Below, one piece after another: positions 11,320-50,695 of a stretch of DNA of 64,000 nucleotides. Source of the stretch: Naegleria gruberi (lineage: Eukaryota); NCBI GenBank assembly GCA_000004985.1, contig GG738870.1. One strand, written 5' to 3'. Below the pieces are notes generated by a model that did no database searches, was not told the origin of the DNA, and worked only from the letters and a program-made list of their open reading frames with translations. Positions within the stretch are counted from its first letter, which is position 1; the number at the start of each line of letters is the position of its first letter. Made by a program: the position numbers and the translations under genes.

Positions 11320-11550
11320 TTTTTTATGTTTTGAAAATTTCATCTCCTGAAAATGTTTGTGAATTTAAAGTTTTTGCGATTTTGCTTTATTTTTAGTTTT
11401 TGAAATTTTCATGTTGTTTCAATTTGGTTGCTGTAACACGGAAAGTCGTTGGAAAAGGATAGTATGGAGTTTAGTTTTGGATATTTGCATTAGAATGGAA
11501 TTTCAATGAACATTTTTTGAACTTTATTGTAAATTTTCTTGTTAAAAAAA

Positions 11551-12687
11551 ATGTCATCAAACTGTATACACTCCCTCTCACTCGATGAAATTTTCAACGT
11601 GATGGAATTTCTCCCACTGAAAGATATTGGAAATGCTTTATGTGTTTGTCGAGAGTGGAATTCCCTAGATCAATATGAACCGTTTTGGAAGGCAAAGCTC
11701 AACCATTTTCTCTCCTCTAATATTATTCATTATTTCAGAAAATGCCAAGAGTTGTGTGGTTCTGACTTGAAAGTTTCGAATAACTTGAATGCTCAACAAA
11801 TTATTTCCATTCTAAACTCGGACGATTCCAAGAAGAAATCAATGGTCATTATTGCACTCAAATCCATGAAATGTGTTAACAAGACAATAATGGAACGTAT
11901 TGATTATCAAATTAACAAATCTATTTTAACAATGTTGGTCAACTCGTTTGATATGAATGTTTTGAAAGATAAAGTTGCGAATAGAATTTCACTCAGAATG
12001 ATTAAACAACAAGAATCTCAAAAAGAAGAACAAGTGATTGATCAGGAAAATGATTTCTTTGCATATGTCAGTGATGAGGAACAAGAGAAGAAGAATGATG
12101 AGGAATTAATTGGAGGACGATTCAAATACCTATTGGAAAGGCAAATCTTGTCAATTATTTCAACAACTATTTCCACATTCCTTTCCAAAAAGGTTAATAG
12201 AATAGGATTGTTTCCATTATTTATCAGAATTTTAACAAATAAGGAGTATAGATTCAAAGAAACTGAAATAAGTGATGATATTGACCTAGTGGAATATAAT
12301 GTCTTGCTTCAACTTGTGAAATTTCACAAAAAGTCAGAAATTCTCCTCAGGTATTGGACAGAATTGATTGACATGTCTATTAACAGATTGACATTAGAGG
12401 TAAGAGAGGAGGATTTTGGAGAAATATTGGAAACATTAATTGAGAAATATGACAACATATACTCTCTCACCATCCTTGGAGATATTTTCGATGAATTGGA
12501 ATATTTTGAACGTTTCTTACCACATTTAAAGAAATCAATTCAGAAGAATGGAATTGAGAGTGAATTTCTCATTTCCTACCTCGGTCGTTTGTCAAGATTG
12601 GAAATTCCAATTTCAAAAAAGTGGGAACGGGCTCAAATTTATTTGGAATACATTTTAGATTTTGCTCCCCCAGCCATCACAAACTTN
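11551..12687 (+). CDS. F-box protein, truncated at its 3' end by the assembly gap.
   Basis: ATG at 11551 (MSSNCIHSLSLDEIFNVMEFLPLKDIGNALCVCREWNSL is an F-box). The ORF runs uninterrupted into the N-run that starts at 12688. Confidence 0.55.
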
Positions 12688-13052
12688 NNNNNNNNNNNNN
12701 NNNNNNNNNNNNNNNNNNNNNNNNNNNNNNNNNNNNNNNNNNNNNNNNNNNNNNNNNNNNNNNNNNNNNNNNNNNNNNNNNNNNNNNNNNNNNNNNNNNN
12801 NNNNNNNNNNNNNNNNNNNNNNNNNNNNNNNNNNNNNNNNNNNNNNNNNNNNNNNNNNNNNNNNNNNNNNNNNNNNNNNNNNNNNNNNNNNNNNNNNNNN
12901 NNNNNNNNNNNNNNNNNNNNNNNNNNNNNNNNNNNNNNNNNNNNNNNNNNNNNNNNNNNNNNNNNNNNNNNNNNNNNNNNNNNNNNNNNNNNNNNNNNNN
13001 NNNNNNNNNNNNNNNNNNNNNNNNNNNNNNNNNNNNNNNNNNNNNNNNNNNN
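12688..13052. other. Assembly gap, 365 N.
   Basis: Contiguous n characters. All ORF-track entries containing X span this gap and are artefacts. Confidence 1.
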
Positions 13053-13249
13053 GATCCAAAATTTTATATTTGTCTTTACAATGCTTGCCAATTAAGATTC
13101 AACCACAATGTTTAATATTTAGCATCATTGCCAAATCTACAGTGCATCTTCCTGAAACTTTACAATTTCTTCAAGAATCTGGCAAGTGCAACCACCAAAT
13201 GGAAAATTCTAAAAATAAAACAAAACATTTCAAAAAAAAAAGCCACAAA

Positions 13250-13777
13250 ATGAAAATTGGTATTTTCGGCGGATGTAACACCACTCGTCTGACTCCAGTT
13301 CTAGAGGAAGAATTGAAGGTTCTCGCCTCACTGATCAATACGGAACAACACCTCGTTGTATACGGAGGTGGAAAGAAGGGAGTGATGAGTATTGTTCCAA
13401 AGTATTTTCATGAGAGAGGAGGAAGGGTGATTTCGATCAATACAAAGGAGGCTAATAATGGATTGGATGAGTGTTATGGTGAGAATTTTCTGTATGATAC
13501 ACTGCAGGAGAGACAGAGGAGATTGATTGAGAATAGTGAGTTGGTGATTTGTTTGCCAGGAGGAATTGGAACGATTAGTGAATTGTTTGATGTGATGGCA
13601 ATGAATAATAACAAGATTAGGAGTGTCAAGATTTTATTGTATAATTTTGAAGGATTTTTCAATCACATGATTGAACAAATTAAATTATTGGGAAAGAATA
13701 CGGATGAATATTTGATAGTGACAAATGAAGTGAATGACTTGATGGAACGTTTGAAGGAATTAATTAAAATTGAATAG
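13250..13777 (+). CDS. LOG-family (lonely guy) cytokinin riboside 5'-monophosphate phosphoribohydrolase / TIGR00730 protein.
   Basis: ATG at 13250 after an A-run. MKIGIFGG...VVYGGGKKGVM...LPGGIGTISELFD matches LOG motifs. The same frame stays open upstream to the gap, so an N-terminal extension cannot be excluded. Confidence 0.8.
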   Translation: MKIGIFGGCNTTRLTPVLEEELKVLASLINTEQHLVVYGGGKKGVMSIVPKYFHERGGRVISINTKEANNGLDECYGENFLYDTLQERQRRLIENSELVICLPGGIGTISELFDVMAMNNNKIRSVKILLYNFEGFFNHMIEQIKLLGKNTDEYLIVTNEVNDLMERLKELIKIE

Positions 13778-14830: not shown

Positions 14831-15151
14831 CTTGCCTTCATGTGGTTTAGAATATTTTATCAGTCACGATTATATTATGAATGCTGTTGAATGTACAAGT
14901 CTCTACTGCTATCAGATATGCCTGTATTAATAAAATTGATAAGCAAATTGATCACTTGTTGGACTGAATGGCAGTCATGTAGACGTCTCTTTGTAAGGCA
15001 AGATGAGTTTGCACCACTCTTTCCAATGGCAGTCATGAGAATTTCCCTATTCCACTGGAAAATATTCATAAATATTTGGTTCCTTTTCAATAATTACCTA
15101 AAATATTTGTGAATGATTTAAAATTTCTAAAAAGAACAACCAAAAACATTT

Positions 15152-15224
15152 ACCGACAATGGGGCTCGAACCCACGACCCCAGGATTAGAAGTCCTGTGC
15201 TCTATCCAACTGAGCTATGACGGC
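15152..15224 (-). tRNA. tRNA-Arg (anticodon TCT).
   Basis: GCCGTCATAGCTCAGTTGGATAGAGCACAGGACTTCTAATCCTGGGGTCGTGGGTTCGAGCCCCATTGTCGGTA. Cloverleaf with D-arm GCTC/GAGC, anticodon loop CTTCTAA and T-loop TTCGAGC. The acceptor stem has one U-U mismatch and a terminal G-U. A T5 tract lies 5 nt downstream (15142-15146 on the minus strand). Confidence 0.6.
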
Positions 15225-20356: not shown

Positions 20357-23300
20357 TTACAAAAGTAAGTTGACATTCTTGGACATTTTGACCAATCTCT
20401 TTACAGAAGGAATGACATCCTCAATTCGTTTAACATTCAAGCCAATGCAAAGCTCGTTGATGAGACTTTGGAACTTTGGGAAGATTCGTACATATTTCTC
20501 CAATTGAGAAACAATGGTTTCACATTCTTCCACAATTTGGTGGGTAAATTGAACATTAAGTGTCCTTTTCAGTTTTGAAATTACTTCACGTTCTTCGTTG
20601 GCTTCATGATTGTTACCAAATACCTTAGTTTGTTTTTTCAATTCAACAATGGCAGCCTTCATCTTAAAGTAGAGAGGGCTTTGTTCAGTCTCTTCTGCCG
20701 TGACCAATTCCTTCTTTAACTTTTCATATAATCTTCTGTACCATATGATATCCAAATAGAGTCCATCCAAATCAATTACCTTTTCTCCATCGAGCAAGAA
20801 ATAGCCAAACTTCTTATCGCCACTATAATTTGTAACATTGATGAGTGAAAAGATGAAAGAGTACATTTGAGCATTGTGTTCGAGAATGCTTCTAACCTTA
20901 GGTATTACATCACTAATGCTCTTGACTCTCAAAATGTCATCTCTGAGAGCTGTCAAAATTGCCTTGTATCTAGTTTCGAGTTTCTTGGCTAGAGGAGAGC
21001 TGATAAACCGTTCTTCCTTATCATCGATATCGAGAGAAATTCTTTCATCATTATTGGAAACAAAGTAAAAGTTTGGATCATCAAAGCCAACAGTCTTGTG
21101 GCGAAGTGGATGAGGTGTCCAATTATCATCACTATTCTTCGAAGGCTTGATTGGACTGGCAACATCTACACCTCTTGATCCTCTCTTTCTTGGAGTAAGA
21201 TCTCCATCACTCTCTGAATCATCATCTCCATTCATCCATCTTTGAATTGACATTGGAAGTTGATCATTAACTTGTCTGGAGGCATGAATCTTCTTGGATT
21301 TGAGTTCTCCCTCCAGAGATTTAATTCTAGATTCTGTTGTATCAACCAATTCTTTCAATTTCTTCATCAAGTCGTTTTCTGATTTTGGTATTTCATCAGA
21401 TTGACCAACAACTTTGCAGAAATCTTTCAATCTAGCTTGTAACTTTTCAAGAATCTTTTCTTCTCTTGAATTCATCAAGTTGGAGAGGGATGTTGAGAGC
21501 AGTGAAGATTGAATATCCAAAAACTTGGACAATTGCTCTTCTCTCATAAAAACCAATTCAGCCAATTTGGAAACATCACCGGAGCTATTATTTGACTCAT
21601 TAATAGCCTTGAACATCTTTGATCTAATGGTATTCTTATCTTCCTTGTAGAGAGATTCGATTTGGAGGAGGCATTGCTTGAGTAAGTTCTTTTCATTTTG
21701 CTTATCGCTCTGTAAATCAATACGCCTAACGGCATCTGAGAGGGAGGAAAGTTGTCTTTCTTGTTCTTGTACATATTCCTTGGTTGATTCGATGGCAAAT
21801 TCTTGTTGAGTGAGGAGACGATCGTTCGAATCGCTTGTAATTGTAGACACAAATGAGCGAGCACGTGAAACTTCTCCTTCGTACATCTTTTCGAGATCCT
21901 TAACATTGAAATCTCTAGTATCTTCAGACATAGTCAAAGTTGAGACTTGAGACATGAAATGAACATCCATTCTATCAATGGCATTTGAGAATGCCTTCTT
22001 TGCTTTTGGAACCTTTGAGACAGAACTATTTGGTTTAAGTCTCAGTTTTCTTACATTGGTCCAGTATTCCATTTGAAGAATCTTTTTCATTTGGGTATGC
22101 TTCTTCTTTAAACTTTCAATCATGTCTTCATGTTTATCGGAAGGAACAAAAACATTTTGAAGGAATTGTACAATCTTTTCGTCACTATCTTGAAGTGTTT
22201 CAGAGTTGACCTTGTTGAGAAGTTCCATTTGTTCATCGAATGTATTTTGGTTAATAATGGATTGATCGAGACCAGCTCTATCATCTTCACTGTTGTTAGT
22301 TGAAATACTGTCATTGAATTCTCTTCTGAGACTCTTTGAAGGTTCTTCAGTGACCAAGGATTTGGTAATATTTCTCACCTTACCACAGAGTTGTCTATTT
22401 TGCTCTACCAGAGTGGTGATTTCTCCTTCCAAGTGGACACAATATTCCTTTAGACCCTTCATATCTTCAGCAGTATGGATATAGTTTGATTCCTCTGAAT
22501 GCTCAACAACCTTCTTTAAACGATCAAGTTCTTTGAAGAAGATATCTCTAATGTATCTCACATCTGATTCGTCTCCACTTGAAAATCTTAAAGAACTCTT
22601 CAAGCTTTCCAATGAATTGAGGTGATCCTTGTGAATCTTCATCATTTGCTTCTTTGTGTTACTTTCATTCTTTTCAAAGAACTTGCTTTGAGTATTGTCA
22701 GAGACGAGCTTTTTGGTCAATTGTTGATTCTCAGATAATAATTTTTCATATTGAGCTTCCAAAATTGACTTTTGTCTCCTCTCACCAGACACTTGATCCT
22801 TCAATTCTCTGGATTGTCTTTCCATTTCCGAGTTGAGATCATTCATTTGCTCTTGGAAGTCCTCTGTTGCTCTCTTGAGGTCATCCTCAAACTTGAGTTG
22901 TTGTACTCTCTTAGAGTATTCATGTTGCTCCTTCATGTTTTGAATATCACCTTCATATTTGACACTTTCAATCTTCAAAGCAGCCTTCTCCTTTTCGAAT
23001 GATTCCTTGAGCTTCATGACTGTAATATCATTTTCATGCTTGATACCATCAATAATTTTAGAATACTTGACTTCTATGGCATCAATTTCTCTTTGGTGTG
23101 CTTGTTTGAGAATTTCATTGCTATCTCTGTGCTTTTCAACATCATTTGCAACTTTTGACTTTTCCAATTCCTTGTGCATGATTTCTTCATCTCTTTCCTT
23201 GATTGCTTGTTCTAATTTTTGAATGGTGGAGGTCTTTTCCTTAATGGACTTTTCCTTTTCTTCAAGTAAAAGTTCCATGTGTTTCTTTTGAGTATTCAAC

Positions 23301-25006
23301 TCCTTCTCAAAGTTAGACATGAGTTGTTTTCTTTCATGTTCAAAGGATTGCTTTTCAGTTTCCCTCTTTTCGACTTCTAGTTCTATTAACTTGTTGAAAT
23401 CATTAACAATTTTGGTCTTTTCATCTTCCTTCTCTGATGAAGACTTGAGTTGCAGAATTTCTGTTTGTTTTTCGTAACGAGACTTGAGGGTATTGATTTC
23501 TTCTTGGTGAAGAGTTTTGATTTCCTTCTTTTCAGCTTCAAATTCTTGGAGGAGAAGTTGCTTTGTTTTTTCAAAGGATGATTTCAAGAGGTCAATTTCT
23601 CCCTTGAAGGTATCACTATTATTGTTCAGCTCATTGTTATACTTGTAAACGAGACGTTCCTTTTCCTTGATAAGATCTTCCTTTTCCTTCATGGAGGCAG
23701 TAATCTTTTCTATGAGGGTTTCTTTCTCCTTTGCATGTTTATCGAGGAGGGTGTCCTTCTCTTCATTGAACTTTTCTCTGTCAATCCTCATCCTTTCAAC
23801 GTACTGTTCAATTTCTTTTCTATGCTTTTCAACGAGGGTTTCCATATCAGCCTTATGTCTTTCAATCATTCCATTCTTATCACTGATGGCATCTTGCATA
23901 ATCTTGATCTTTTCTGCATTGAGTTGCTCCAAAACAGAATGCTTATCAACAGAGGATTTTTCAAACAATTGCTTTCTTTCTTCATTTTGTTTTTCTAGCA
24001 ATTGCTTCTTTTCTTCATTGAATTTCTGAGACAGTTCCATCTTTTCAGAGTTAAAGCTTTGAATCATTTGCTTCTTTTCTTCTTGGAGTCCATCAATTTC
24101 ATCCTGTAACATTTTGATAACATTACTATTCTCTACTTTGATGTTGGAGAGTCTTTTATCATAGTCAGACTTTAGTTCCACTTTTTCAATATCAAATGAT
24201 TTTTTAGCAGTATTGAACTTGAGTTCAAAATCAGATTGTTGTGAAGTTAATTTGTTTTCCAAATCAAGTTTTAGCACATTGAGTTTGTCTATTTCCTTTT
24301 TCAATTGATTTACTTGTCCTAGTTTGCTACTTAGTTCGCTTCTTTCCTTTTCTTCCAATTCATCAATTCTTTCAGAAAGGGAGTTATTTTCATTGGAGAG
24401 ATCATTCACTGTCTTTTGATAGCCAGCGACTTGATCTTGAAGCCTTCTGATATTATCCTTGAGAATTTGATTTTCAGAATCGGTGGTTCCCATCATGGTT
24501 TTGAGCTGTCTGTATTCCAATTCAAGTCTCTCATAATCTTGATTTTTAATTTGGAATTCTTCCTGGAGCTCGCTTAGTTGTTTCTCAATTAGAGTATTTC
24601 TTTCCTTTAACTTGATGAATTGAGTATTTTGTTTTGGAGGTAAATTCTGCATTTGTGATGTAATAAAATTCAATTGGTTTTGTATTGCGCTCATACTACT
24701 ATCCCCACTCACAGAAGAGTCGGCAAAGGAGCTTGTCAAGGAGCTAGCCTCTAACCCTCTTCTTGCTGATCTTATTGGTGATGTTCCGACACTGATTAAA
24801 TAATAGTCCAATAACAATCGTGATGAAAAAACCTACCCATTTTGTAATGATTTGATGGTTTCCTTTGCTCTCTCCAATAAGAGATTGGTTTGTTGAAGTC
24901 TTTCCTCTCCACTTTGTAAAGCCTTTTTAAGTTGTTCCTTATCCAACGACTCGTCCATAGAACGTTCCGAGTCGGTTGAATCAAATTCTGAGAAATTCAT
25001 AGACAT
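20357..25006 (-). CDS. Very large coiled-coil protein, about 1541 aa. Two exons: 24837..25006 and 20357..24791.
   Basis: ATG at 25006 (MSMNFSEFDSTDSERSMDESLDKEQLKKALQSGEERLQQTNLLLERAKETIKSLQNG). GTAGGT donor at 24836 and acceptor ...ttaatcag at 24792, phase 2. The junction reads ...QNG|VGTSPIRSARRG and continues into the 1486-aa ORF. Heptad-rich throughout. Confidence 0.7.
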
Positions 25007-26615: not shown

Positions 26616-28994
26616 TTAATCAAACTCAAAGTCGCTCCTTTCTACAATTGGTGTTCGTGTACTATAAATTGGACTAAGGGAATCATCACTATCATAATCT
26701 TCATCGTCGCTATCAGAATCTCTCTTGCTAGGAGTGTAGAACTTGAAAGGCTCTTCATCTCTCAACAGCAGAGTTTCATCCACAAGCGATTGTTGTGAAG
26801 AGTTTGTTGCTAAACAACTTTGTCTCACAGAATCTTCCTGAACCTTGCCCACACCACATCCAAAACCACCCTGACTTGGACTATATGCTCTCGATGAAGA
26901 AACAATCAAATCTTTTTGAAGGGATTCAGCTTCCAATGGGATTGTTTGAACCTGATTCAAAATATCTTGTATTTGCCTTGGTGTTGGTCTCTCTGATGGA
27001 TCCTTATTCACCATCATACGAATTACTTGTTTGAATTGCGTGTTTTTCCATTCTAGACGGTCAACCATCTTTTGCAAATCTTCCTTCTTTGAACAAACAA
27101 ATCTCTTTCTATCAAGACAACACAATATTGATGCTCCCAGCGAAAACACATCAATTTTCTCATCATAACAATCTCCTGTTAAAACCTCTGGTGCCTTATA
27201 AGAGTTGGTTCCATAATTTTCATTAGCAAGAACTCGAGTGAAGGTGTCTATGTATCCACTGTCTGTTTTTTCAAAATGGAAACTCATACTAAAGTCAATC
27301 AGTACAAATCTTTGTAATGTTGGATTATTGTCTGGATTTCTTATCATGATATTTTGCATCTTTACATCTCTATGAATAATATTTAAGGAATGCAAACATT
27401 CAAGAGCATGGCAAATATCCAAACACAGACTATACAGCTCACATTCCATCAATCTATTAGAGAGTGGTAATAACTCTTCATACTCAATAAAGGAATTATA
27501 AATATTCATCACTTGTGGAAGACATCGGGAAATATTTCTAGATTCCAATAATTTTGAAACAATATACTTTTCCTCCTTCTCAATCCTCTTTACAAATGTT
27601 GTGTTTTGAATTTTACAACTGTATCCAATCTCATTCTTTGCCTCTGAAATGATTCTCTTATTAATTGCCATATTCGGAACAAGACACAATTTCTTGATCT
27701 GATTCTGAATCTTGAATAGAACATCATCTTCATCACTTCTTGAATCTATAAAGGGTTTCAAATTCCAATAACTTAAATTCTGATGCTGTGGTATTTCCTT
27801 CATTATCGACACTGCACTCTGAACATTATAGGAGGAAAGGAATATCTTTGAAAAGTTCAGAATATCCACCCACAATATCAACAAATCCACTTCTGACTTG
27901 ACTCTATACTTTTTATAATACAGTTTCATTGAAATATTAATGCTATTGTCCACTTCTTCCTCCGAGTTGCGTTCTTTGAGAAAACCTCTCAAAATAAACA
28001 TGTGAATCAATTGCTTTGAGTAACTCACTCCAATAACAGTTGAACTTCTATGGAATTCCTCTTCATTATTCATTGCTGTTGAAATATTTCTTCGTAGTAA
28101 ACTCTTTAGTGATAAAATCATTTTCAGTGTTGATGTATTCTCCCATGAAGATGATGAAGTTAGATAGGAATGTTTGATTTCTTCCAAGAGAAGGAAGGTT
28201 GTCCCATTTTGTGTCCTTAATTCTCCTTCGATTTTAAGCATGATCGGATCAACATTCTTTTCCAATTTAATTTCAAACTTTGATTTACTGTATTAATTAA
28301 ACATTAAATATTAAAAAATTAAAGTATTAAATAAGGCTTACCTCAACTGAAAATGATTTAAAACATCACATAGTACATTAAAATAGGACCACATATAACT
28401 TCTTAAAGCTCCATGTCTTTCCTCTGTTCCGATAGCATACTTTTTCAATTGATCCACAACACCGAATATTAAAACAAGATGATGATATGAAATTTGAAAT
28501 CCTAAGGCACTGCTTAGTAAATGAATACAATCCAAAAGAGGTTCCAAAGACTTTCTCAAACTCTTATAGAATTTGAAGGTGAGAATGAGTACTTCTATAA
28601 TTTCCGAATCGATGACTATGCAATTCAATGGATTTTCCTCATCATTTGCATTATCTATTGCATCGAGTCCCTCTATTAAGAATAGCTTTTTAGCCAATGA
28701 TCCGATAACCCACTTGGAATCACAACTCCATCCCTCTGCTATATCCAGACACATGATCACATCCAACAAGTGTTGAATTTTCATCTCAGATGTGTTATTT
28801 ACATTGGAGCAATTCTGAACAATTCTCGAAAGGACATCATTAAGCGAAAGTGGTCCTTGTTCAACCACAACAGCCTGTGAACCTATTCTACTCATTGCAA
28901 AACAAGCACTACCACTACTCGATATCATCAGCACTGGATTGGTTGCAGAATTCTCCATAGTGATATTCTCAGAGTTTGTTGTAGTGAACAACAT
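26616..28994 (-). CDS. Atypical Ser/Thr protein kinase with a novel N-terminal domain, about 774 aa. Two exons: 28342..28994 and 26616..28287.
   Basis: ATG at 28994 (aaaaaaaATG). GTAAGC donor at 28341 and acceptor ...aatacag at 28288 (54-nt intron, phase 2). The junction reads ...NHFQL|SKSKFEIKLEKNVDP. Kinase core has HRDVKMQNIMI, DFS in place of DFG, and YKAPEVL. No canonical GxGxxG loop is visible. Confidence 0.7.
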
Positions 28995-29199: not shown

Positions 29200-32100
29200 T
29201 TATTGGTCTGCAGTGGTGAGTTTGTTGGATTGTTGAATAATTTTCCAAAAGTAAAGTCCACATGAGAGAAGAGCCATGCATGGTGTTGATGAATGTAATA
29301 TGCCAGTTTTTGGAAGAGCAATTTTGAGTTCGTAATGTTCGCTGGTGAGATCTAGGGTTTGACTCAAAGAGGAGAGCTTCTTGGTGAAGAGAGATACTTT
29401 AAGTATGGTTATTTCGAGCATTTGATTGTGATGTTCATAAGTGTAAATTTGCTTTTCTAATTTTCTGACAACATTAACAAGTGATAGCTCGGAATGATGG
29501 GTCAATTGTTGAGGTGAATCTATTCTGATTATCCACTGATCTCTATTGAGGGAGTTCACCAACCTGCTGATACTGTGATCTTCTGGAAGAAATCTAGAAT
29601 GATTAATGTAGAATCTCATATCACTTGTTTTTCCAATAAATGTTGTAGCCATTACTCTGGTACGACGGCTCAATATTCCATCTGGTTTCAATTTCAAATT
29701 TTCATCCAATTTCACCTTGTATTCAACTGAGTTTTTCCTTTCAACATTTTCAATCTCACATACGTTATATTCTGTAAATTCTTGCTTGGTACATCCTGCA
29801 AGCTCTTTCAATATTAAAGCAATGGCTTCTGAATCTACAAGGGTTAGGAAAGAATCTGAGGGTGCCTTCTTTTCTTGTTTCTTCTTTATAATTTCTGGAG
29901 TTTCATTCTGGCAACCTACTTTACTTTTTGATTTGCTAGAGCCACGTTTGTTAGGTTGTAAATAATCAATTAAAGGCCATTCTTTCTCAAAATCATTCGA
30001 AGTCTCAACTGGTTTCTTTTCTTCTTTGTATTTTTTGACCTCCTCGATACTGTGGAAATGATTCTTTTTCATTAGAGAGTTGTAGTGTTTCGAATCTTGT
30101 GGAATAATCTCAGAAAATATTGACTTTTCAATATTAATCAAATAATAGGTTCCAAATTTGATAGAGTATGTAAAATGATTTGGGTCCAAATCAATTGCTA
30201 ACGTTTTTTCTAATTGTGTTAACAAATTTTGATAAAAATCATACATTGGAAGAACTTCTTCCTTGTAAACCTTCAATTTTGGTTGGTGTTTGGTTATTGG
30301 TTCAAGCACATGTTTTGGATTACATTTTCCTAAATATGGCTTGAACTCAATTGGACTGTCTAAAGAATCTCCCTCATAAATTGCCAAAGTAGAGCCCTCT
30401 AAAAACAATCTATGATTGTTGGCTCTGAAATATTTACAATTTGCATTCCAAAGAGCTAGCTTTCGCTTCAGTCTTGAGCTGATTCCATGTTCTCCAGTGG
30501 CATTAATTATATAATTACCATTTTTCATTTCAAAAAGATTGGTAATTTTACAATTGCAACTCTTTTCCAGCTCAGACTTCAGGACCGTCTCTATCATTGA
30601 GTTTCCAAGTACTTTTCGTAGAAGGCTCGGTACATAAACTTGTGATTCCTCCATCTCTTCAATGCTTAATTTGGTAAAGTCGTGAAGAAGGAAAAGATTA
30701 AGTATACAAGAATCAAGTAAATCCCTGGCATGGCTTACTTGCTCAATAGTCAAAATGACAGCGGTGATTTTCCCATCCAGATTATCCACGAACTCCATAT
30801 TTTCTTTGAATATTAAACGCTTCAAAAACAATACAATCAGCTCGGTTTCATGTTGGAATTCGCTATTCAAACATTTACCTAGAATTTGCTTCATAAACAC
30901 AGAGTCTTTCTCCATTTCACCATCAAATGCTTGCTGCTCAGTTGGTGGACTTTCTTGTACAAGGTAGTTCTTTTCTAGGCAAAATGTCACAATTCTCCAT
31001 GTCAATTGATAAGTTTTGATGTGAGGGCATATTTTCTTGAGAAGATCAATCAATACTTTAAGGAGGACAATTAATTTAGGTTTTTGTTTCAAATAGAGTC
31101 TCAAGTGGTGCTTTTTTCTCAATCCTCTACTGGAATTGGTAAAATCAATCGATTCTATAAACGGAAGATCGGTGACCTTTGCAAATATCCTGAACATTGG
31201 TACTGATTTTTGCCAATCAGTAGCACTGGATCCAAACTCAGATGACAGTACTGAACAAACAGGTGGACAATTTTCATCTCCTTTTTCTGCTTTGAAATCG
31301 AAAAAGGTGTCACAATCCGAACTAAATGAGTTATGAAGGAGGACTGGTAAAGAACCAAACATGTGAATTCTATATTCTTGATTAGTTTTGTACTTAAGTT
31401 GCTCCAATCTTTTTTCCATGATTTCAAGCTGTTCCAAATTCATATGCTCTACAAAGCTATTGAGAGATTTGGCCAGATTCTTATAAATATCCAACTTGTT
31501 GAATTCTGTAATTCTTCTTGAAGGAATAGTCAATGAGAAAATATTGGCAATTGGTAAGTTTTGAATGGCTAGTTTACAATTTTCCTCTCTTGCAATTTCT
31601 CTGAATTGTTCTATTAAATGTGTGAATTCTTTTCGTTCAATCCCATTCCCAACAAACAGATCAAACAATGTACAATAATGAACTTGTTTCAAATATTCAA
31701 TAATTTGCCAAAATCTTCTATTCCATTCATTAACCTTTTCATCTTGGATAATAAATTCTGGTTCTTTAAATTCTGATGGAATGCCAGATTTAATGCTTGT
31801 GCACTTCTCATAGATTCGTCCAATAATGGAGTTTGATTTGATAGAAATTGATCCACGTTCCATAAAATCTGGATAAATAATATCTTTAAACCAGTTTGGT
31901 AGTGAAATTTGCTTTCCATTTTTTGGGAAATCAACAGCTTTTACAAACAAGTCGGCCAATTCTAGTGCTCTGTCAGAGTCAGCACCTTCAGAATCAACTA
32001 TAGCAACCCAAGCATCACTTATTTTCCCTAATAATTTTCCGTTCTCTAATATTTTGCTCAAAACTTCTGAGTGCTCAGTTGTAGACTCCATTGGCTCATT

Positions 32101-35100
32101 ATCATGTGTCAAGGGAGACAAATTAGAGACCTGATCAGGTATCAATCTAGAATCCCAACAAACAAAAACTCGATCACCATCAAAATCACAAATCTTGATC
32201 GATGTGTATCCTTGTGTTGGGAAGATAATTGCTGCATTGCTTGGTCTGTACTTGCTTCTCAGTAAGCTGTTATCTCTACAAGTGAAGGTTTGAATATCTG
32301 AAGGGTGCAAACAGGGATTTCTACAAATAAATACCTGCGTACCATCCTCTATATAATTTCCATCGCCAAGTTGCACCATAACTTCATTCTCCTTCAGTTG
32401 TTTATACTCATCAACAATACTCATAGCAATTACAGCTTTTTCAATTGGGATCATTGCCTTTGTTTGTACTTTCTTGATTTCGTCATAAATCAAGTATCTT
32501 GCCAGATATTGCAGGAACTCATCGTCAGGCATTTCATTCAGAGATTGAATGGCTGGTAAAGTATCCATACAATTTTCTTTGAGAACTTTTAAAAAGTATT
32601 TAGGAGACGTAATTTTTTCTGAGAGATCTTTGAAATAATCTAAGAATATAGAAAGGAAGGTTTCTTTGGTAATACCCAAAGTAGTAAGCAATAAAATAAT
32701 TTGCTTATTTAGGTATGCTGGTTTTCGAGCAGTTGTGCAACTAACCAGTTCAATCTTGTTAAGCTCCTCTTTTCCATTAAATTTACACATTGATTCTCTA
32801 AGAATGACATCCATTCCATCTCCCAAGTCTTCATCAGGTAGTACTGACAGTACTCCTTTGAATCCTAAGAATCTGATTTGCAAGGCTGTTGGCACTGAAA
32901 CAAGCCCTAACTGGTTGGAAATTTGTTGCGCTATACTTTGTGAAATTTTTCCTATTCCATCAGTCATTTCAGAACCATCAATTGCCAATTCATCCTTAAC
33001 ACATTTCCACTTATTGATGGTACAAGTTTCTTTTGTAGTTGTAAAATTAAGAGCATGTCTGGAAACAAGTTTGAAGGGGTTGAGATTCGAGTCATATGTA
33101 CCAAATATTTGCATTAATTCATCGACTTCGCTACACGCTGGCATGGCAGTTGTGTCAAAGAAATAGACATAGTCACTACGGAGCATACTTAAAGAGCCAC
33201 CAACAGGACGATATTCTTTTCCACAACATTCAATACTGGCGGGAACTACATCAATAATTTTCACTTTTACAAAGTTGTCTGGGTGTAACTTTCTGAAAAA
33301 TCTCTTATCATCCATAAGTTGTGGAAGTCCATAGGTTATTTTTTGTTTGTAAGTAACAGATCTAATGAATCTACTCTCCTTTGTATCATTTGATTGCTGA
33401 GATATTTTCAATTTCTCAATGTACTCTAACATTTTTGATTCAGGTGCAAAGGTGCATTTCTTGAATAAACTACATATTTCAGCAGTAAATAACGACATGG
33501 AAAGAGCATTGGATGAAAAGCTGTCATTATTGATAAGAGCTTTCAATCTTTCACTGATAGATGATATTATTTGAGGGGAAATGTAAAGCATTGGATGTCT
33601 ATCTTGAATATACGACAGGTAATAGGAAATCGTGCTGTTTTCATGGAAGATTGATTCGTATGGAATAAGTTCTTTAACATTTAACTTGACAAAATAAACC
33701 TTGAAACCGTCAAACGTATTTGGAATGGAAGTGGTTCCTGGCTCAATATTTCCAATGCAAGAGTACTTGTTCAATTCTTCACTGTTAACCACATTAAAGA
33801 CATATTTACCACTCCTCTCATCAATTAATATGTATCTACCAACTGCCCTCAGGATTTCATTATGGAAATCCATTTCTGGAGATAACTGAATAGGTCCACC
33901 TTCTTCCATGTAGATTTCGAATCCTTTTTCAGCAGAAAAAGTCATTGCACCTGGGCAGATTTCGATATTGTTGGAATGGTAGGAATGTAAACTCTCTGTT
34001 GGCTCAATAAACAATGCTGCATGCTTATCGAGAAGTGTGTTGAAAATCATTTTGCGAACACTCTCGAATTGGGTCTCTTCCAATGTAATTTCAATGTAGG
34101 CACTCTGTTTATCCCATTCAATCATTCTAAAAGAGCGTTTAAACACTTGCATAGTATTCCTAATATCATCTAAAGTGATACTATCAAAGTGGTGAATGGT
34201 GAATGATAAAATTTTGGTCTTGATAGGCTCAATTGTTTTTCTGAACTCAAAGTAATCTTCAAGCAAGGGCTGGATTTTGTTTGAGCTTTCCTCAGATCTA
34301 TACAATTAGATTTCCTCCAAATCACAAAGAATACTTACTTTAGTGAAATTTTTGTAATCATTTCCTTCTCTTCCTTTTCAATTTGTTCATAGTAATTTTG
34401 TTCTTCTTCTTCAATCAATAAATGGAAGGTACTCTTTTTCTGACGTGCTCTTCCTCTAGCTTGAATAATTCTTCTCAAAGAAAGATTACCATCAAAGAGA
34501 ACAACAATATTACAATCAGAAATATCAATACCTTCTTCTAAAACACTAGTAGAAACTAAGAGCTTGCATTCATGATTTTTAAATTCTTCTATCAAGACTC
34601 TTTGTTCATTTTCATAATTCATTCCACCTGCTCCATATTGGCCGACTATTCTTTGAGGATAAAATTGCTTGAATTTTCTTTCCAACATTCTTGTCAACCT
34701 GAAAGACATTTCTTTGGTTTTTACAAAAACTAGAATACGTGAATCATCTTTAGTCTTGTTTAAGATGGACTCCAACACTCCAAATCTTTCTGAAAATGAA
34801 CGGGTGATATTTGAAAACTTTTCTTTTGAATATTCCAAATCTTTTGATGATTCTAGATATTCTAAAGCTTCTTTGGTTCCAAGAATATTAGTCATTTCCA
34901 TTAATCCTATAAATTTGAGCATTTTCTGTGAAATACTTTCGTATTGTGGTGGTATGTGAAGTCTTAAATAACCAATAATTGATATAAAACTCCCAAAGTG
35001 CCATAAATTATTAATCTTGTACTCTAGTAATTGTTCATTCAGTAAGCATACTTCTTCCTTAAATTTAGAGATCAGTTGTATTTGTTCTTGCTTCATTGAT

Positions 35101-36284
35101 GTTTTCCTAATTTTAGTTGATGCAGTATTTTCCATTTCTCGCATCTTTTCTCTTGTTAGAAAAGGATAGGAAACAGAATCAATTTTGAAGGAAACTTCTA
35201 ACTGTTGAAAATCTAGTGGTGATGCTGTGAGACCAGTAATTTTAACACGTGATTGTGAATTGCGAAAAGCAGCACCCAATAAATTATATCTACTATTTGG
35301 ACTAATTCCATGGTGTATCTCATCAAATACCACCATTGAAAAATCTTCAGGTCTTAACATTCTATTTTCGAACAAGTTCAATAACAAGCCATCAGTGAAG
35401 AAGCAAACTTGAACCTCTCTTTTACGTAACCTTTCAATCGACTCTGCAGTTCTCGTTTGACTACACAATACCAAGGATTTATCTTCGGTCTCTGTTATAT
35501 AATAATCAGATTGTTGAAAAGCAAGTGGAATTTTGTTCACTACAAATGCCACCAACTTTTCTGGATTGAGTACACTCATCTTTTTCATCAATAGAACAGA
35601 CACTAGAGTTTTACCTAATCCTGTTGGAAGACAAATCAGAGAGTTTGTAAACAAGCTCTGAAAGTACATCTCCACTTGATAATCTCTAGGAGTGGAATGA
35701 AGCAATGAAGGAGGATAGTACTGTTCTTGATTCTTCTCATCAAGAAAGTTTGGCAACACTGTCTGCACAATAGGCTCAACAACTTGATTTGTCAAATCAT
35801 TATTATCATTATGTGAAGGAAGGTAACTCTTGATATCCTCATAAATCATATGAAAAGGAAGTTTCCTATCGGGCCACTTTTTCTTTGCTATTGTAGTTGT
35901 TGGATCTTCCAAGCCTTTCACAAAAGTTGCTTCTGGTCTAAAGCAAACAAAGCCTTCACTCAATTGTACAACTTTGGTACCAATGGTGAATTCATCTTTA
36001 ATTTTAATAACAGTTGCGACCTTTTCATTGCACTTTCTACAATGTAATGTATGGAGAACAATCTTCTTCTTTGGTGATTCTTGAACATCCATATTAATCA
36101 TCAATTTTTGATTGTTGGAATGATTAGTATCAATTTGATCATCGGAAGTGTATTTAATTTGATGATCATAGGTTAGTGTACAGTGATTGGCATTGTTATA
36201 CTTGCATAGACACATCCAATCGAAGGAAATTAATGCATGGCCACACTTTAAACAAGAGAGAAGATGTGATGGTTGTGGAAGCAT
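29200..36284 (-). CDS. Fusion of a Dicer-like DExH helicase and a cellular RNA-dependent RNA polymerase (RrpA/DosA type), about 2347 aa. Two exons: 34339..36284 and 29200..34297.
   Basis: ATG at 36284 (aaaATG). N-terminal Cys pairs CLKCGH...CRKCNE. Helicase motifs LPTGLGKT (Walker A), DEIHHG (DExH) and a helicase-C region. GTAAGT donor at 34338 and acceptor ...tgtatag at 34298 (41-nt intron, phase 2). The junction reads ...KISL|K|SEESSNKIQPLLEDY. RdRP catalytic motif CDFDGDRVFVCWD (DxDGD). Confidence 0.8.
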
Positions 36285-36548: not shown

Positions 36549-36619
36549 AGGGAGATAGTTCAGTGGTAGAACATGGGATTGTGGTTCCTAAGATCAGGGT
36601 TCGATTCCCTGTCTTCCTA
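36549..36619 (+). tRNA. tRNA-His (anticodon GTG), copy 1.
   Basis: AGGGAGATAGTTCAGTGGTAGAACATGGGATTGTGGTTCCTAAGATCAGGGTTCGATTCCCTGTCTTCCTA. Anticodon loop TTGTGGT, T-loop TTCGATT, discriminator A. No G-1 is encoded, which is the eukaryotic situation. T5 terminator at 36624-36628. Confidence 0.85.
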
Positions 36620-36623
36620 CACC

Positions 36624-48213: not shown

Positions 48214-48286
48214 GCCCGTCTAGCTCAGTCGGTAGAGCGCAAGGCTCTTAACCTTGTGGTCGTGGGTTCGACCCCCACGGTGGGCG
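48214..48286 (+). tRNA. tRNA-Lys (anticodon CTT).
   Basis: GCCCGTCTAGCTCAGTCGGTAGAGCGCAAGGCTCTTAACCTTGTGGTCGTGGGTTCGACCCCCACGGTGGGCG, a canonical Lys-CTT sequence. T-rich terminator at 48294-48304. Confidence 0.9.
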
Positions 48287-50592: not shown

Positions 50593-50624
50593 AGTAAATA
50601 ATCAAAATTAAAAGTTAAAAGGTG

Positions 50625-50695
50625 TAGGAAGACAGGGAATCGAACCCTGATCTTAGGAACCACAATCCCATGTTCTACCACTGAACTATCTCCCT
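50625..50695 (-). tRNA. tRNA-His (anticodon GTG), copy 2. Identical in sequence to copy 1.
   Basis: The reverse complement is the same 71 nt as 36549-36619. The 5' flank AAGGGAGAT and 3' flank ACACCTTTT are shared with copy 1. Confidence 0.85.

What the first reader, a model, noticed from the sequence alone, without database searches (positions are those of the whole stretch)
29200..36284. Single 2347-aa gene fusing a Dicer-type DExH helicase (with N-terminal CxxC pairs) to a cellular RdRP
The helicase ORF and the 1701-aa RdRP ORF are joined in phase by a 41-nt GTAAGT..TAG intron. The product carries Walker A GLGKT, DEIHHG and helicase-C motifs upstream of the RdRP DFDGD catalytic loop. This is the architecture reported for Dictyostelium RrpA/RrpB/DosA, where the Dicer helicase module resides on the RdRP. 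The extreme N-terminus has two Cys pairs (CLKCGH...CRKCNE) that could form a zinc ribbon. This is an RNAi-pathway gene and a strong lineage marker for dictyostelids.
Basis: partly seen in the sequence, partly recalled or inferred. Interest (0 to 1): 0.55.

Follow-up and report, generated by a model that had tools for sequence, protein, structure and literature searches.

The report
Naegleria helicase–RdRP–nucleotidyltransferase giant RNAi gene
This is one 2347-residue Naegleria gruberi gene, split into two genes in the reference annotation, that puts an RNA-end sensor, a helicase, an RNA-copying polymerase, a tailing enzyme and a triphosphate-binding domain on one chain; it belongs to a family found in many eukaryotic groups, not only slime moulds.

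Summary
On the minus strand, exon 1 (36284..34339) and exon 2 (34297..29200) are joined in phase by a 41-nt GTAAGT..TAG intron (34338..34298). The product is 2347 aa with GLGKT, DEIHH, helicase-C and DFDGD.

The fusion is real. Willaertia magna encodes the same protein as one unbroken ORF. Naegleria lovaniensis has a 41-nt intron at the same codon and phase.

The lineage call is wrong. The window is Naegleria gruberi (Heterolobosea), where the gene is annotated as two genes, NAEGRDRAFT_67962 and 67961. The architecture is no dictyostelid marker: homologues occur in Amoebozoa, oomycetes, a liverwort and a streptophyte alga, and the literature adds cnidarians.

Three further family-wide domains emerged:
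- A Cid1/GLD-2/TUTase-type nucleotidyltransferase follows the RdRP, with its catalytic residues intact.
- The last ~200 residues are homologous to the kinetoplastid RESC1/2 CYTH-like domain that binds the guide-RNA 5'-triphosphate (hhalign 97%, E 6e-11).

Best reading: a single-chain RdRP complex for small-RNA amplification. It is a new member of a known kind. The domain assignments appear unreported.

The parts
34339..36284 (-). Exon 1 (residues 1-648 plus the first two bases of codon 649). In the reference annotation this is the separate gene NAEGRDRAFT_67962.
34298..34338 (-). 41-nt phase-2 spliceosomal intron, GTAAGT...TATAG. Its donor supplies the TAA that ends the annotated 649-aa model.
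   Evidence: N. lovaniensis has a 41-nt intron at the homologous codon and phase. Willaertia has none there and reads through as one ORF.
29200..34297 (-). Exon 2 (last base of codon 649, residues 650-2347, stop at 29200-29202). The annotated NAEGRDRAFT_67961 starts only at Met698 (window 34152).
35862..36263 (-). N-terminal RLR-CTD-like zinc domain (residues ~8-141). Probable ligands are C11, C14, C82 and C85. H34 and W137 are conserved.
34365..35702 (-). SF2 DExH helicase of the Dicer/RLR/FANCM-Hef clade (residues ~195-640). GLGKT at 35607-35621, DEIHH at 35310-35324, QARGRAR motif VI. A ~115-aa helical insert lies between the two RecA lobes.
   Evidence: Pfam. PDB phmmer: AncD1D2 Dicer helicase 5.8e-31, DCL1, human Dicer, RIG-I, MDA5, FANCM, Hef. 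Coordinates checked.
33346..34296 (-). Linker / RdRP N-terminal region (residues 650-966). No domain assigned.
   Evidence: No Pfam hit. Aligns with N. lovaniensis and Willaertia.
31804..33345 (-). Cellular RdRP domain (residues 967-1480). Catalytic DFDGD at 32173-32187.
   Evidence: PF05183 E 6.6e-101. PDB: Arabidopsis RDR2 2.8e-39, QDE-1 1.7e-16. Coordinates checked.
30604..31446 (-). Non-canonical ribonucleotidyltransferase of the Cid1/GLD-2/TUTase type, palm plus central domain (residues ~1600-1880). G1630-S1631, D1643-x-D1645 and D1700 are present.
   Evidence: Profile A7 against PDB: TUT7 2.7e-24, TUT4 2e-23, GLD-2 1.3e-22, URT1 5e-19, Trf4 and Cid1 ~1e-13. Homologues reach the Pfam PF22600 gathering score. 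Naegleria itself gets no Pfam hit.
30184..30531 (-). Conserved middle region of unknown fold (residues ~1905-2020). Carries LFEGS, Y1970, H1978 and Q2010.
   Evidence: Conservation across 17-25 family members. No PDB or Pfam match.
29206..29826 (-). C-terminal RESC1/2-like CYTH (triphosphate-tunnel) domain, robustly aligned core (residues ~2140-2346). It may start near residue 2026 (SIKFGTYY). D2208, R2210, R2260 and E2305 are invariant or nearly so.
   Evidence: Profile A5 against PDB: T. brucei RESC2 6e-6. hhalign A5 against RESC2 family A6: 97.1%, E 5.9e-11. Reversed and unrelated controls gave P~0.6. Fold and 5'-ppp binding of RESC2 are from PMC10201420.

Best explanation
This is one Naegleria gruberi gene encoding a five-module RNAi enzyme: a single-chain RNA-dependent RNA polymerase complex.

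Shown here:
- The gene structure.
- The identity of each domain: RLR-CTD-like zinc domain, RLR/Dicer-clade DExH helicase, cellular RdRP, Cid1/GLD-2/TUTase-type nucleotidyltransferase, and RESC1/2-like CYTH tunnel domain.
- The helicase, RdRP and nucleotidyltransferase catalytic motifs are intact.
- The whole architecture is conserved across several eukaryotic supergroups.

Inferred mechanism:
1. The N-terminal CTD-like domain and the ATP-driven helicase select and engage an RNA end or duplex, as RIG-I, LGP2 and C. elegans DRH-1/DRH-3 do.
2. The RdRP copies the template into complementary RNA, giving dsRNA for Dicer or direct small RNAs.
3. The nucleotidyltransferase adds untemplated nucleotides to the 3' end of template or product, as Cid12 does in the S. 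pombe RDRC and Rdn1/2 do in the Tetrahymena RDRCs.
4. The C-terminal tunnel domain holds, or possibly trims, the 5'-triphosphate that a de novo initiated RdRP product carries, as RESC2 holds the 5'-ppp of guide RNAs.

The output would be secondary siRNAs for transposon or gene silencing, as shown genetically for the Dictyostelium relatives RrpA and RrpC.
For: Gene model.

Organism.

Helicase.

RdRP with DFDGD.

Nucleotidyltransferase. GS...DxD...D is conserved. PF22600 exceeds its gathering score in the Cavostelium, Acytostelium and Riccia homologues.

N-terminal RLR-CTD fold.

RESC1/2-like tail.

Family spread: 185 clusters at E<=1e-3 carry the C-terminal module, many of them 2000-2900 aa with the match at the C-terminal end. 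Named members come from Heterolobosea, Amoebozoa, oomycetes, a liverwort and a streptophyte alga.

Function of relatives: RrpC is needed for 5' spreading of siRNAs in Dictyostelium (PMC3661229).

From my own knowledge: RDRCs elsewhere combine an RdRP with a helicase and a nucleotidyltransferase in trans (Hrr1-Rdp1-Cid12; Rdr1-Rdn1/2; RRF-1-DRH-3).
Against: - There is no transcript, small-RNA or biochemical evidence for Naegleria.
- The intron is supported only by comparison.
- Naegleria's own nucleotidyltransferase and tail get no Pfam hit. The assignments rest on family profiles.
- The structure model of the C-terminal 773 residues was poor (pLDDT 45), so the tunnel fold is inferred from homology, not seen.
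- The RESC2 gamma-phosphate ligands K311, R359, R402 and R424 do not map one-to-one onto conserved family residues in the HMMER alignment. Naegleria has ExK where most family members have the ExE of motif c. Phosphate binding is therefore not demonstrated.
- N. lovaniensis is only 34% identical and shows no synteny, so it may be a paralogue.
Confidence: 0.8

Rival explanations
1. These are two independent genes, as in the reference annotation: a stand-alone 649-aa helicase and a 1650-aa RdRP starting at Met698. The in-phase GT..AG would be coincidental.
For: The N. gruberi annotation has exactly these two models. GTAAGT is not enriched in the window: 9-10 per strand against ~21 expected. No transcript data were available.
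Against: - Willaertia encodes both halves in one unbroken ORF.
- N. lovaniensis has a 41-nt intron at the same codon and phase.
- The 48 codons upstream of Met698 are conserved in frame.
- The 649-aa model's stop is the TAA of the splice donor.
- Only 183 nt would separate the helicase stop from Met698.
- Every full-length relative examined (roughly 2200-3400 aa) carries helicase and RdRP on one chain.
Confidence: 0.04
2. It is a fused gene, but the accessory domains are degenerate scaffolds. The nucleotidyltransferase and tunnel domain would be pseudo-enzymes or protein-interaction modules, and only the helicase and RdRP would act on RNA.
For: RESC1/2 are themselves pseudo-enzymes (PMC10201420). 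Naegleria's accessory domains are too diverged for Pfam. The TTM motif-a glutamates are not evident, and motif c is ExK in Naegleria.
Against: The nucleotidyltransferase keeps G-S, D-x-D and the third Asp, in Naegleria and across the family. The tail keeps invariant R2210 and R2260, and near-invariant D2208 and E2305, over supergroup-level divergence. That pattern indicates a conserved ligand site rather than a mere scaffold.
Confidence: 0.12
3. It acts as an RNA sensor or defence effector against viruses rather than in endogenous siRNA amplification. The RLR-like sensor head would trigger polymerase activity on foreign RNA.
For: The CTD-plus-helicase head matches RLRs and DRH-1, which are antiviral sensors. 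The family evolves fast: 34% identity within the genus Naegleria.
Against: The Dictyostelium relatives act on transposons and transgenes (PMC3661229). DRH-3, an equally good structural match, is a core RdRP cofactor for endogenous small RNAs. The two roles are not mutually exclusive.
Confidence: 0.04

Closest known systems
Dictyostelium RrpA/RrpB/RrpC (DosA) and other helicase-RdRP fusions (oomycete RDR1, Hydra and Nematostella RDRs; RDR-gamma group)
   Same: An N-terminal DExH helicase plus a cellular RdRP on one >2000-aa chain. The dictyostelid homologues (Acytostelium, Heterostelium, Synstelium) align collinearly with the Naegleria protein. They share the N-terminal CxxC..CxxC module, the nucleotidyltransferase and the C-terminal tail.
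   Different: The host is a heterolobosean (Discoba). Identity to dictyostelids is only 25-28%, no higher than to oomycete or liverwort members. The papers I could read describe only the helicase and RdRP domains (PMC3661229, PMC4791657).
S. pombe RDRC (Rdp1-Hrr1-Cid12) and Tetrahymena RDRCs (Rdr1-Rdn1/2)
   Same: The same three activities: RdRP, helicase and Cid1-family nucleotidyltransferase.
   Different: Here they are fused in cis. Hrr1 is, from my own knowledge, an SF1 ZNFX1-type helicase, so it is analogous rather than homologous to this RLR-clade helicase. No CTD-like or CYTH-like module is known in those complexes.
RIG-I-like receptors and C. elegans DRH-1/DRH-3
   Same: The helicase belongs to the same clade. 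The zinc-binding CTD fold matches, with two Cys pairs, a conserved His and a KW motif. DRH-3 works with an RdRP.
   Different: The CTD-like domain sits N-terminal to the helicase rather than C-terminal. There are no CARDs. Profile E-values to the CTDs are marginal (0.007-0.05), so the case rests mainly on the predicted structure.
Kinetoplastid RESC1/RESC2 (GRBC1/2, GAP1/2), Pfam PF25477 RESC1/2 CYTH-like domain
   Same: Profile-profile homology over ~190 columns, including the DxR strand, the ExE strand and the C-terminal helix.
   Different: RESC1/2 are ~470-aa mitochondrial proteins forming a domain-swapped heterodimer. They were said to have no sequence homology outside kinetoplastids (PMC10201420). 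Here the domain is the C-terminus of an RdRP. The RESC2 phosphate ligands are not clearly conserved position by position.
Cid1/GLD-2/TUT4/TUT7/URT1 non-canonical poly(A)/poly(U) polymerases
   Same: Palm and central domains and catalytic carboxylates. Family profile E-values range from about 1e-24 to 1e-13.
   Different: The domain is embedded in a 2347-aa protein. Nucleotide specificity is unknown. Naegleria's copy falls below Pfam detection.

Membership tests
Cellular (eukaryotic) RdRP, Pfam PF05183 | Significant match to the RdRP family model. | tested here: met
   PF05183 E 6.6e-101, 339 bits against a cutoff of 23.8. RDR2 2.8e-39 and QDE-1 1.7e-16 in PDB.
Cellular (eukaryotic) RdRP, Pfam PF05183 | Catalytic DbDGD loop with the Asp residues intact. 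| tested here: met
   DFDGD at residues 1353-1357. It aligns with GDLDGD of N. lovaniensis and Willaertia.
Cellular (eukaryotic) RdRP, Pfam PF05183 | RNA-templated RNA synthesis. | not testable with these tools
   Needs biochemistry.
Helicase-RdRP fusion family (Dictyostelium Rrp type) | The helicase and the RdRP are encoded on one polypeptide. | tested here: met
   In-phase 41-nt intron. One uninterrupted ORF in Willaertia. Conserved intron in N. lovaniensis. No transcript data.
Helicase-RdRP fusion family (Dictyostelium Rrp type) | Collinear homology to dictyostelid Rrp-type proteins in both domains. | tested here: met
   BLASTP to Acytostelium, Heterostelium and Synstelium: helicase E 1e-30 to 1e-39, RdRP E 1e-24 to 1e-35. 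D. discoideum RrpA/B/C themselves were not retrieved.
   The host is N. gruberi. Members occur in Willaertia, Cavostelium, Pelomyxa, Pythium, Plasmopara, Riccia and Mesotaenium. Oomycetes and cnidarians are in the literature (PMC4791657).
Dicer/RIG-I-like/FANCM-Hef clade of SF2 helicases | Motifs I, II (DExH), III and VI are intact, and the best matches are to this clade. | tested here: met
   GLGKT, DEIHH, TAS, QARGRAR. The top PDB hits are Dicer, RIG-I, MDA5, LGP2, FANCM and Hef.
Dicer/RIG-I-like/FANCM-Hef clade of SF2 helicases | Specifically a Dicer-type helicase, i.e. nested within Dicer helicases. | tested here: inconclusive
   Scores to Dicer (88-111 bits), RLRs (84-87) and FANCM/Hef (82) are close. 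I built no tree. A published tree separates RDR helicases from Dicer helicases (PMC4791657).
RLR C-terminal (regulatory) domain | Beta-tent fold with a zinc site made by two Cys pairs. | tested here: met
RLR C-terminal (regulatory) domain | Significant sequence match to the RLR CTD family. | tested here: inconclusive
   Profile against PDB: RIG-I CTD 0.007 (full length), DRH-3 0.012, LGP2 0.05. Mis18, at 0.004, is equally good. No Pfam hit.
RLR C-terminal (regulatory) domain | Binds RNA 5' ends or duplex ends. | not testable with these tools
   Needs binding assays.
Cid1/GLD-2/TUTase non-canonical nucleotidyltransferases | hG[GS] ... DxD ... D catalytic signature in a Pol-beta palm, followed by the central domain. 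| tested here: met
   G1630-S1631, D1643/D1645 and D1700. Profile A7 covers positions 5-279 of 323 against GLD-2, and matches TUT7/TUT4 at 1e-23 to 1e-24.
Cid1/GLD-2/TUTase non-canonical nucleotidyltransferases | Naegleria's own sequence reaches a curated family threshold. | tested here: not met
   No Pfam nucleotidyltransferase hit for residues 1560-2347 at E<=10. Membership is transitive, through homologues with PF22600 at 33-50 bits against a cutoff of 27.
RESC1/2 CYTH-like domain (PF25477) / triphosphate tunnel fold | Homology to the RESC1/2 family. | tested here: met
   HMMER profile against PDB: RESC2 6e-6. hhalign 97.1%, E 5.9e-11, with clean reversed and unrelated controls.
RESC1/2 CYTH-like domain (PF25477) / triphosphate tunnel fold | Match to the Pfam model above its gathering score. 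| tested here: not met
   Only 1 of 17 tails hits PF25477, at E 0.019. This is a distant relative, not a member as Pfam draws the family.
RESC1/2 CYTH-like domain (PF25477) / triphosphate tunnel fold | Eight- to ten-stranded tunnel barrel with basic residues that bind a 5'-triphosphate. | tested here: inconclusive
   The structure model of this region was unusable (pLDDT 25-45). R2210 and R2260 are invariant, but they do not coincide with RESC2 K311, R359, R402 or R424 in the HMMER alignment.

The most novel reading that the evidence does not exclude
The helicase-RdRP proteins of Naegleria, Dictyostelium, oomycetes, bryophytes and others would all be five-domain single-chain RDRCs. Their head would be an inverted RIG-I-like sensor (CTD-like zinc domain followed by an RLR-clade helicase). 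Their tail would be the only known non-kinetoplastid relative of RESC1/2, the proteins that cap the 5'-triphosphate of guide RNAs.

This would imply two things. First, the RLR CTD-plus-helicase pairing predates animals and arose in an RNAi polymerase. Second, the kinetoplastid guide-RNA-binding proteins derive from the 5'-ppp-handling domain of an ancestral small-RNA amplification enzyme. Naegleria and kinetoplastids both belong to Discoba.
Probability: 0.45. Interest if true: 0.7.

Novelty: new member of a known kind. Interest (0 to 1): 0.5.

Why it matters
- It corrects the N. gruberi gene models: 67961 and 67962 are one gene. It also corrects the N. lovaniensis model, which lacks its N-terminal domain.
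- It places the helicase-RdRP architecture in Discoba. That widens its spread to at least five major eukaryotic groups and argues for an ancient origin rather than a dictyostelid invention.
- The extra domains turn a 'helicase + RdRP' cartoon into a testable model. In this model, RNA-end sensing, unwinding, copying, 3' tailing and 5'-triphosphate handling sit on one chain.
- The RLR-CTD-like head bears on where the animal RIG-I-like receptors came from.
- The RESC1/2-like tail gives a first outgroup for proteins thought to be kinetoplastid-specific.
- All of this can be tested in tractable relatives such as Dictyostelium and Phytophthora.

Tried and rejected
1. Dictyostelid origin. Rejected by exact matches to N. 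gruberi proteins and by a GC content of 33-35%.
2. Zinc-ribbon reading of the Cys pairs. Rejected in favour of the RLR-CTD beta-tent fold.
3. A special affinity of the nucleotidyltransferase for the trypanosome editing TUTase RET1. This was suggested by the 5-sequence profile. It was rejected when the 15-sequence profile ranked TUT7, TUT4, GLD-2 and URT1 far above RET1.
4. Structure of the C-terminal 773 residues from a 5-sequence alignment. The model had pLDDT 45 and was unusable, so I did not fold-search it.
5. The search for homologous proteins with the C-terminal alignment A2. It returned nothing, so that search was wasted.
6. The look-up of encoding contigs for the 649-aa ORF. Nothing was on record.
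7. Synteny between the N. gruberi locus and the N. lovaniensis and Willaertia loci. None was found beyond generic kinase similarity.
8. GTAAGT enrichment as intron evidence. The motif is not enriched.
9. Residue-by-residue mapping of RESC2 phosphate ligands onto the family. It was inconclusive.
10. Literature searches for prior descriptions of the nucleotidyltransferase, CTD-like or RESC-like domains in these RdRPs. I found none. The Burroughs/Aravind 2014 review was not held, so prior description cannot be excluded.


Full report
**1. The observation**

The window has 33-35% G+C. Two minus-strand ORFs lie at 34335..36284 (649 aa) and 29200..34305. Read on the minus strand, the junction is ...ATT TCA CTA AA|GTAAGTATTC...TTGTATAG|A TCT GAG GAA....

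Removing the 41 nt at 34338..34298 joins the frames. Codon 649 is split after its second base, so the intron is phase 2. The result is a 2347-codon reading frame with no internal stop. The stop that ends the 649-aa ORF is the TAA inside the GTAAGT donor, which is the usual signature of a missed intron.

- GLGKT at 222
- DEIHH at 321
- Helicase_C at 502-613
- DFDGD at 1353
- CxxC at 11 and 82

**2. Whose gene is it, and is the fusion real?**

The window is Naegleria gruberi. The 218-aa ORF downstream and the 649-aa helicase ORF are exact matches to EFC44056.1 (NAEGRDRAFT_67960) and EFC44058.1 (NAEGRDRAFT_67962). The RdRP part is annotated separately as EFC44057.1 (NAEGRDRAFT_67961). That model is 1650 aa, starts at Met698 of the fused protein (window 34152) and is identical from there to the end. 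The reference annotation therefore splits the locus into two genes and leaves codons 650-697 unassigned.

Four lines of comparative evidence favour one gene:
- The best database hits are N. lovaniensis XP_044543951 (2234 aa, 34% identity over 92% of the query) and Willaertia magna KAL9645322 (2397 aa). Both carry helicase and RdRP.
- The three proteins align collinearly through the junction and to the last residues. This includes the unassigned 48 codons.
- The Willaertia gene is a single uninterrupted 7194-nt ORF.
- N. lovaniensis has an intron at the homologous K/R codon, in the same phase and also 41 nt long (gtttgt...caacag).

Introns of about 40 nt are normal here. N. lovaniensis has a 43-nt intron nearby, and a 30-nt minimum intron length was used when mapping N. 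fowleri reads (PMC8296547). I could not consult transcripts. GTAAGT is not enriched in the window, so the case is comparative, but it is strong.

**3. Lineage claim**

The claim of a dictyostelid marker fails. Outside Naegleria and Willaertia, the full-length architecture turned up in these organisms:
- Amoebozoa: Cavostelium, Pelomyxa, Acytostelium, Heterostelium, Synstelium
- Oomycetes: Pythium, Plasmopara
- A liverwort: Riccia
- A streptophyte alga: Mesotaenium

Bollmann et al. 2016 (PMC4791657) had already reported the fusion in peronosporomycete oomycetes, Hydra and Nematostella besides Dictyostelium. They did not list Naegleria, although N. gruberi Dicers were in their data. The split annotation would explain that omission.

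BLASTP identity of the Naegleria protein to dictyostelid members is 25-28%. That is no higher than its identity to oomycete or liverwort members.

**4.

*(a) N-terminal module.* The two Cys pairs belong to a ~135-residue module conserved across the whole family. C11, C14 and C82 are invariant. H34, C85 and W137 are at least 90% conserved. The module is also present upstream of the mis-called start of the N. lovaniensis model.

A profile of the module finds only beta-tent zinc domains in the PDB:
- Mis18, E 0.004
- duck RIG-I CTD, E 0.007, aligned over its full length
- DRH-3 CTD, E 0.012
- MsrB1, E 0.014
- LGP2, E 0.05

So this is not a zinc ribbon. It is an RLR-CTD-like domain placed N-terminal to the helicase.

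*(b) Helicase.* All the SF2 motifs are intact. The best solved relatives are Dicer helicases (AncD1D2 5.8e-31, DCL1, human Dicer). RIG-I, MDA5, LGP2, FANCM and Hef score almost as well. It belongs to that clade. 'Dicer-type' is only loosely right.

*(c) RdRP.* PF05183 scores E 6.6e-101. The best solved relative is Arabidopsis RDR2 at 2.8e-39.

*(d) Nucleotidyltransferase.* The ~870 residues after the RdRP get no Pfam hit in Naegleria. They are nevertheless conserved in 185 clusters of a 1.84-billion-protein library, mostly at the C-terminal end of 2000-2900-aa proteins.

The first part contains FGS(1629-1631)...SDCD(1642-1645)...D1700, the Pol-beta nucleotidyltransferase signature. Three results support the assignment:
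- An HMM of the three heterolobosean tails hits Cavostelium residues 1711-2118 at E 8e-25. That stretch covers its PF22600 (MTPAP-like palm) match.
- PF22600 exceeds its gathering score in Cavostelium, Acytostelium and Riccia.
- A 15-sequence profile hits TUT7 (2.7e-24), TUT4, GLD-2, trypanosome TUT4, URT1, RET1, Trf4 and Cid1, across both palm and central domains.

*(e) Tail.* A 17-sequence profile of residues 1905-2347 hits one thing in the PDB: T. brucei RESC2/GRBC2 (8CDP_B at 6e-6, 8FN4 at 6.9e-6). The match runs over profile positions 255-442.

I retrieved six kinetoplastid RESC2 homologues, all carrying PF25477 'RESC1/2 CYTH-like domain'. A profile-profile comparison gives 97.1% probability and E 5.9e-11 over 187 columns. 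Reversed alignments and an unrelated alignment give P of about 0.6. A 25-sequence alignment of the whole C-terminal region gives 96.3% and 1.9e-9.

Pfam's own model sees only 1 of the 17 tails, at E 0.019. The link is therefore not in current annotation.

RESC1/2 are Cet1-like triphosphate-tunnel pseudo-enzymes. [quoted passage not shown] A 2026 review names no outside relative (PMC12936278).

The family tail keeps R2210 invariant and D2208, R2260 and E2305 invariant or nearly so. These do not map cleanly onto RESC2's K311, R359, R402 and R424. My only structure model of this region was unusable. Homology is therefore well supported. The tunnel fold and phosphate binding are inferred.

*(f) Unassigned regions.* Residues 650-966 and ~1905-2020 are conserved but have no assignment. 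The second region carries LFEGS, H1978 and Q2010.

**5. Mechanism**

In other organisms, RdRPs act in complexes with a helicase and a Cid1-family nucleotidyltransferase:
- S. pombe: Rdp1-Hrr1-Cid12
- Tetrahymena: Rdr1-Rdn1/2
- C. elegans: RRF-1/EGO-1 with the RLR-type helicase DRH-3

These examples are from my own knowledge. Here all three activities sit on one chain, together with an RNA-end-binding CTD-like domain and a 5'-triphosphate-tunnel-like domain.

The most likely working cycle has four steps:
1. The head (CTD-like domain plus helicase) selects and remodels the template.
2. The RdRP copies it.
3. The nucleotidyltransferase tails a 3' end.
4. The tail domain holds or processes the 5'-ppp of the nascent strand.

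The output is dsRNA or secondary siRNAs. Genetic evidence exists only for the Dictyostelium relatives (PMC3661229). For Naegleria everything beyond domain identity is inference.

**6. Novelty and score**

The finding as given is a helicase-RdRP fusion. That is a known architecture, now placed in a new lineage with a corrected gene model, so it is a new member of a known kind.

The family-wide domain assignments are, as far as I could search, undescribed. This applies to the RLR-CTD-like head and the RESC1/2-like tail. The nucleotidyltransferase is visible in Pfam for some homologues. The key comparative-genomics review was not available. I therefore give about 0.45 to the joint claim that these homologies are both real and new.

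Overall interest: 0.5.

Noticed in passing
L001 5572-6000 (N. lovaniensis PYSW02000043.1): The N. lovaniensis gene model XP_044543951 starts too late. The ORF extends 143 codons upstream and encodes the conserved CxxC..CxxC RLR-CTD-like domain (CVQCKS...CVKCGEK...FVCFRPEA).
   Followed up: yes
window 36549-36620 (+); also 15151-15224 (-), 48214-48286 (+), 50624-50695 (-): Four tRNA genes are present. One is a tRNA-His(GTG) only ~265 bp upstream of the gene's ATG, on the opposite strand. It bounds the 5' end of the gene. A second tRNA-His(GTG) copy lies at 50.6 kb.
   Followed up: partly
window 12687-13052: A run of 366 N, i.e. an assembly gap. ORFs listed across it (11539..13095 and 12662..13777) are artefacts of the gap.
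   Followed up: no
L002 13243-14796 (-) and 4265-5828 (-) (Willaertia magna JBEGDK010000140.1): In Willaertia the gene is flanked by an Rnl2-type RNA ligase (PF09414 plus T4_Rnl2_C), convergent and 50 bp from its stop. A Spo11/TopoVIA homologue lies upstream. An RNA ligase next to an RdRP may be coincidence. It is not conserved in the N. gruberi or N. lovaniensis loci.
   Followed up: no
proteins P0055, P0064, P0065, P0070, P0075, P0090 (metagenome/Logan contigs): These are stand-alone ~800-850-aa proteins that match profile positions ~370-690 of the C-terminal profile, upstream of the RESC-like part; only P0055 shows weak nucleotidyltransferase matches (PF22600, DUF7752). They have no helicase or RdRP. 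None is named and their source organisms are unknown. They could be trans-acting versions of part of the tail module.
   Followed up: partly
window 28338-28994 (-), NAEGRDRAFT_67960: The 218-aa gene directly downstream has a sub-threshold match to EDC4_C, the C-terminal domain of an enhancer of mRNA decapping (E 8e-4, 19.5 bits against a cutoff of 27). It has no detectable counterpart next to the N. lovaniensis gene.
   Followed up: partly
window 20357-24817 (-): A 1486-aa ORF with no Pfam match lies in a stretch with strongly negative AT skew (-0.25 to -0.36 at 22-25 kb).
   Followed up: no
Pfam PF24934 (DUF7752) in Acytostelium P0051 1819-1916 and in P0055 213-316: A domain of unknown function gives weak hits (E 1e-3 and 5e-5) directly after the nucleotidyltransferase palm in two family members. 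It probably corresponds to the central (PAP-associated-like) domain of this nucleotidyltransferase lineage.
   Followed up: no
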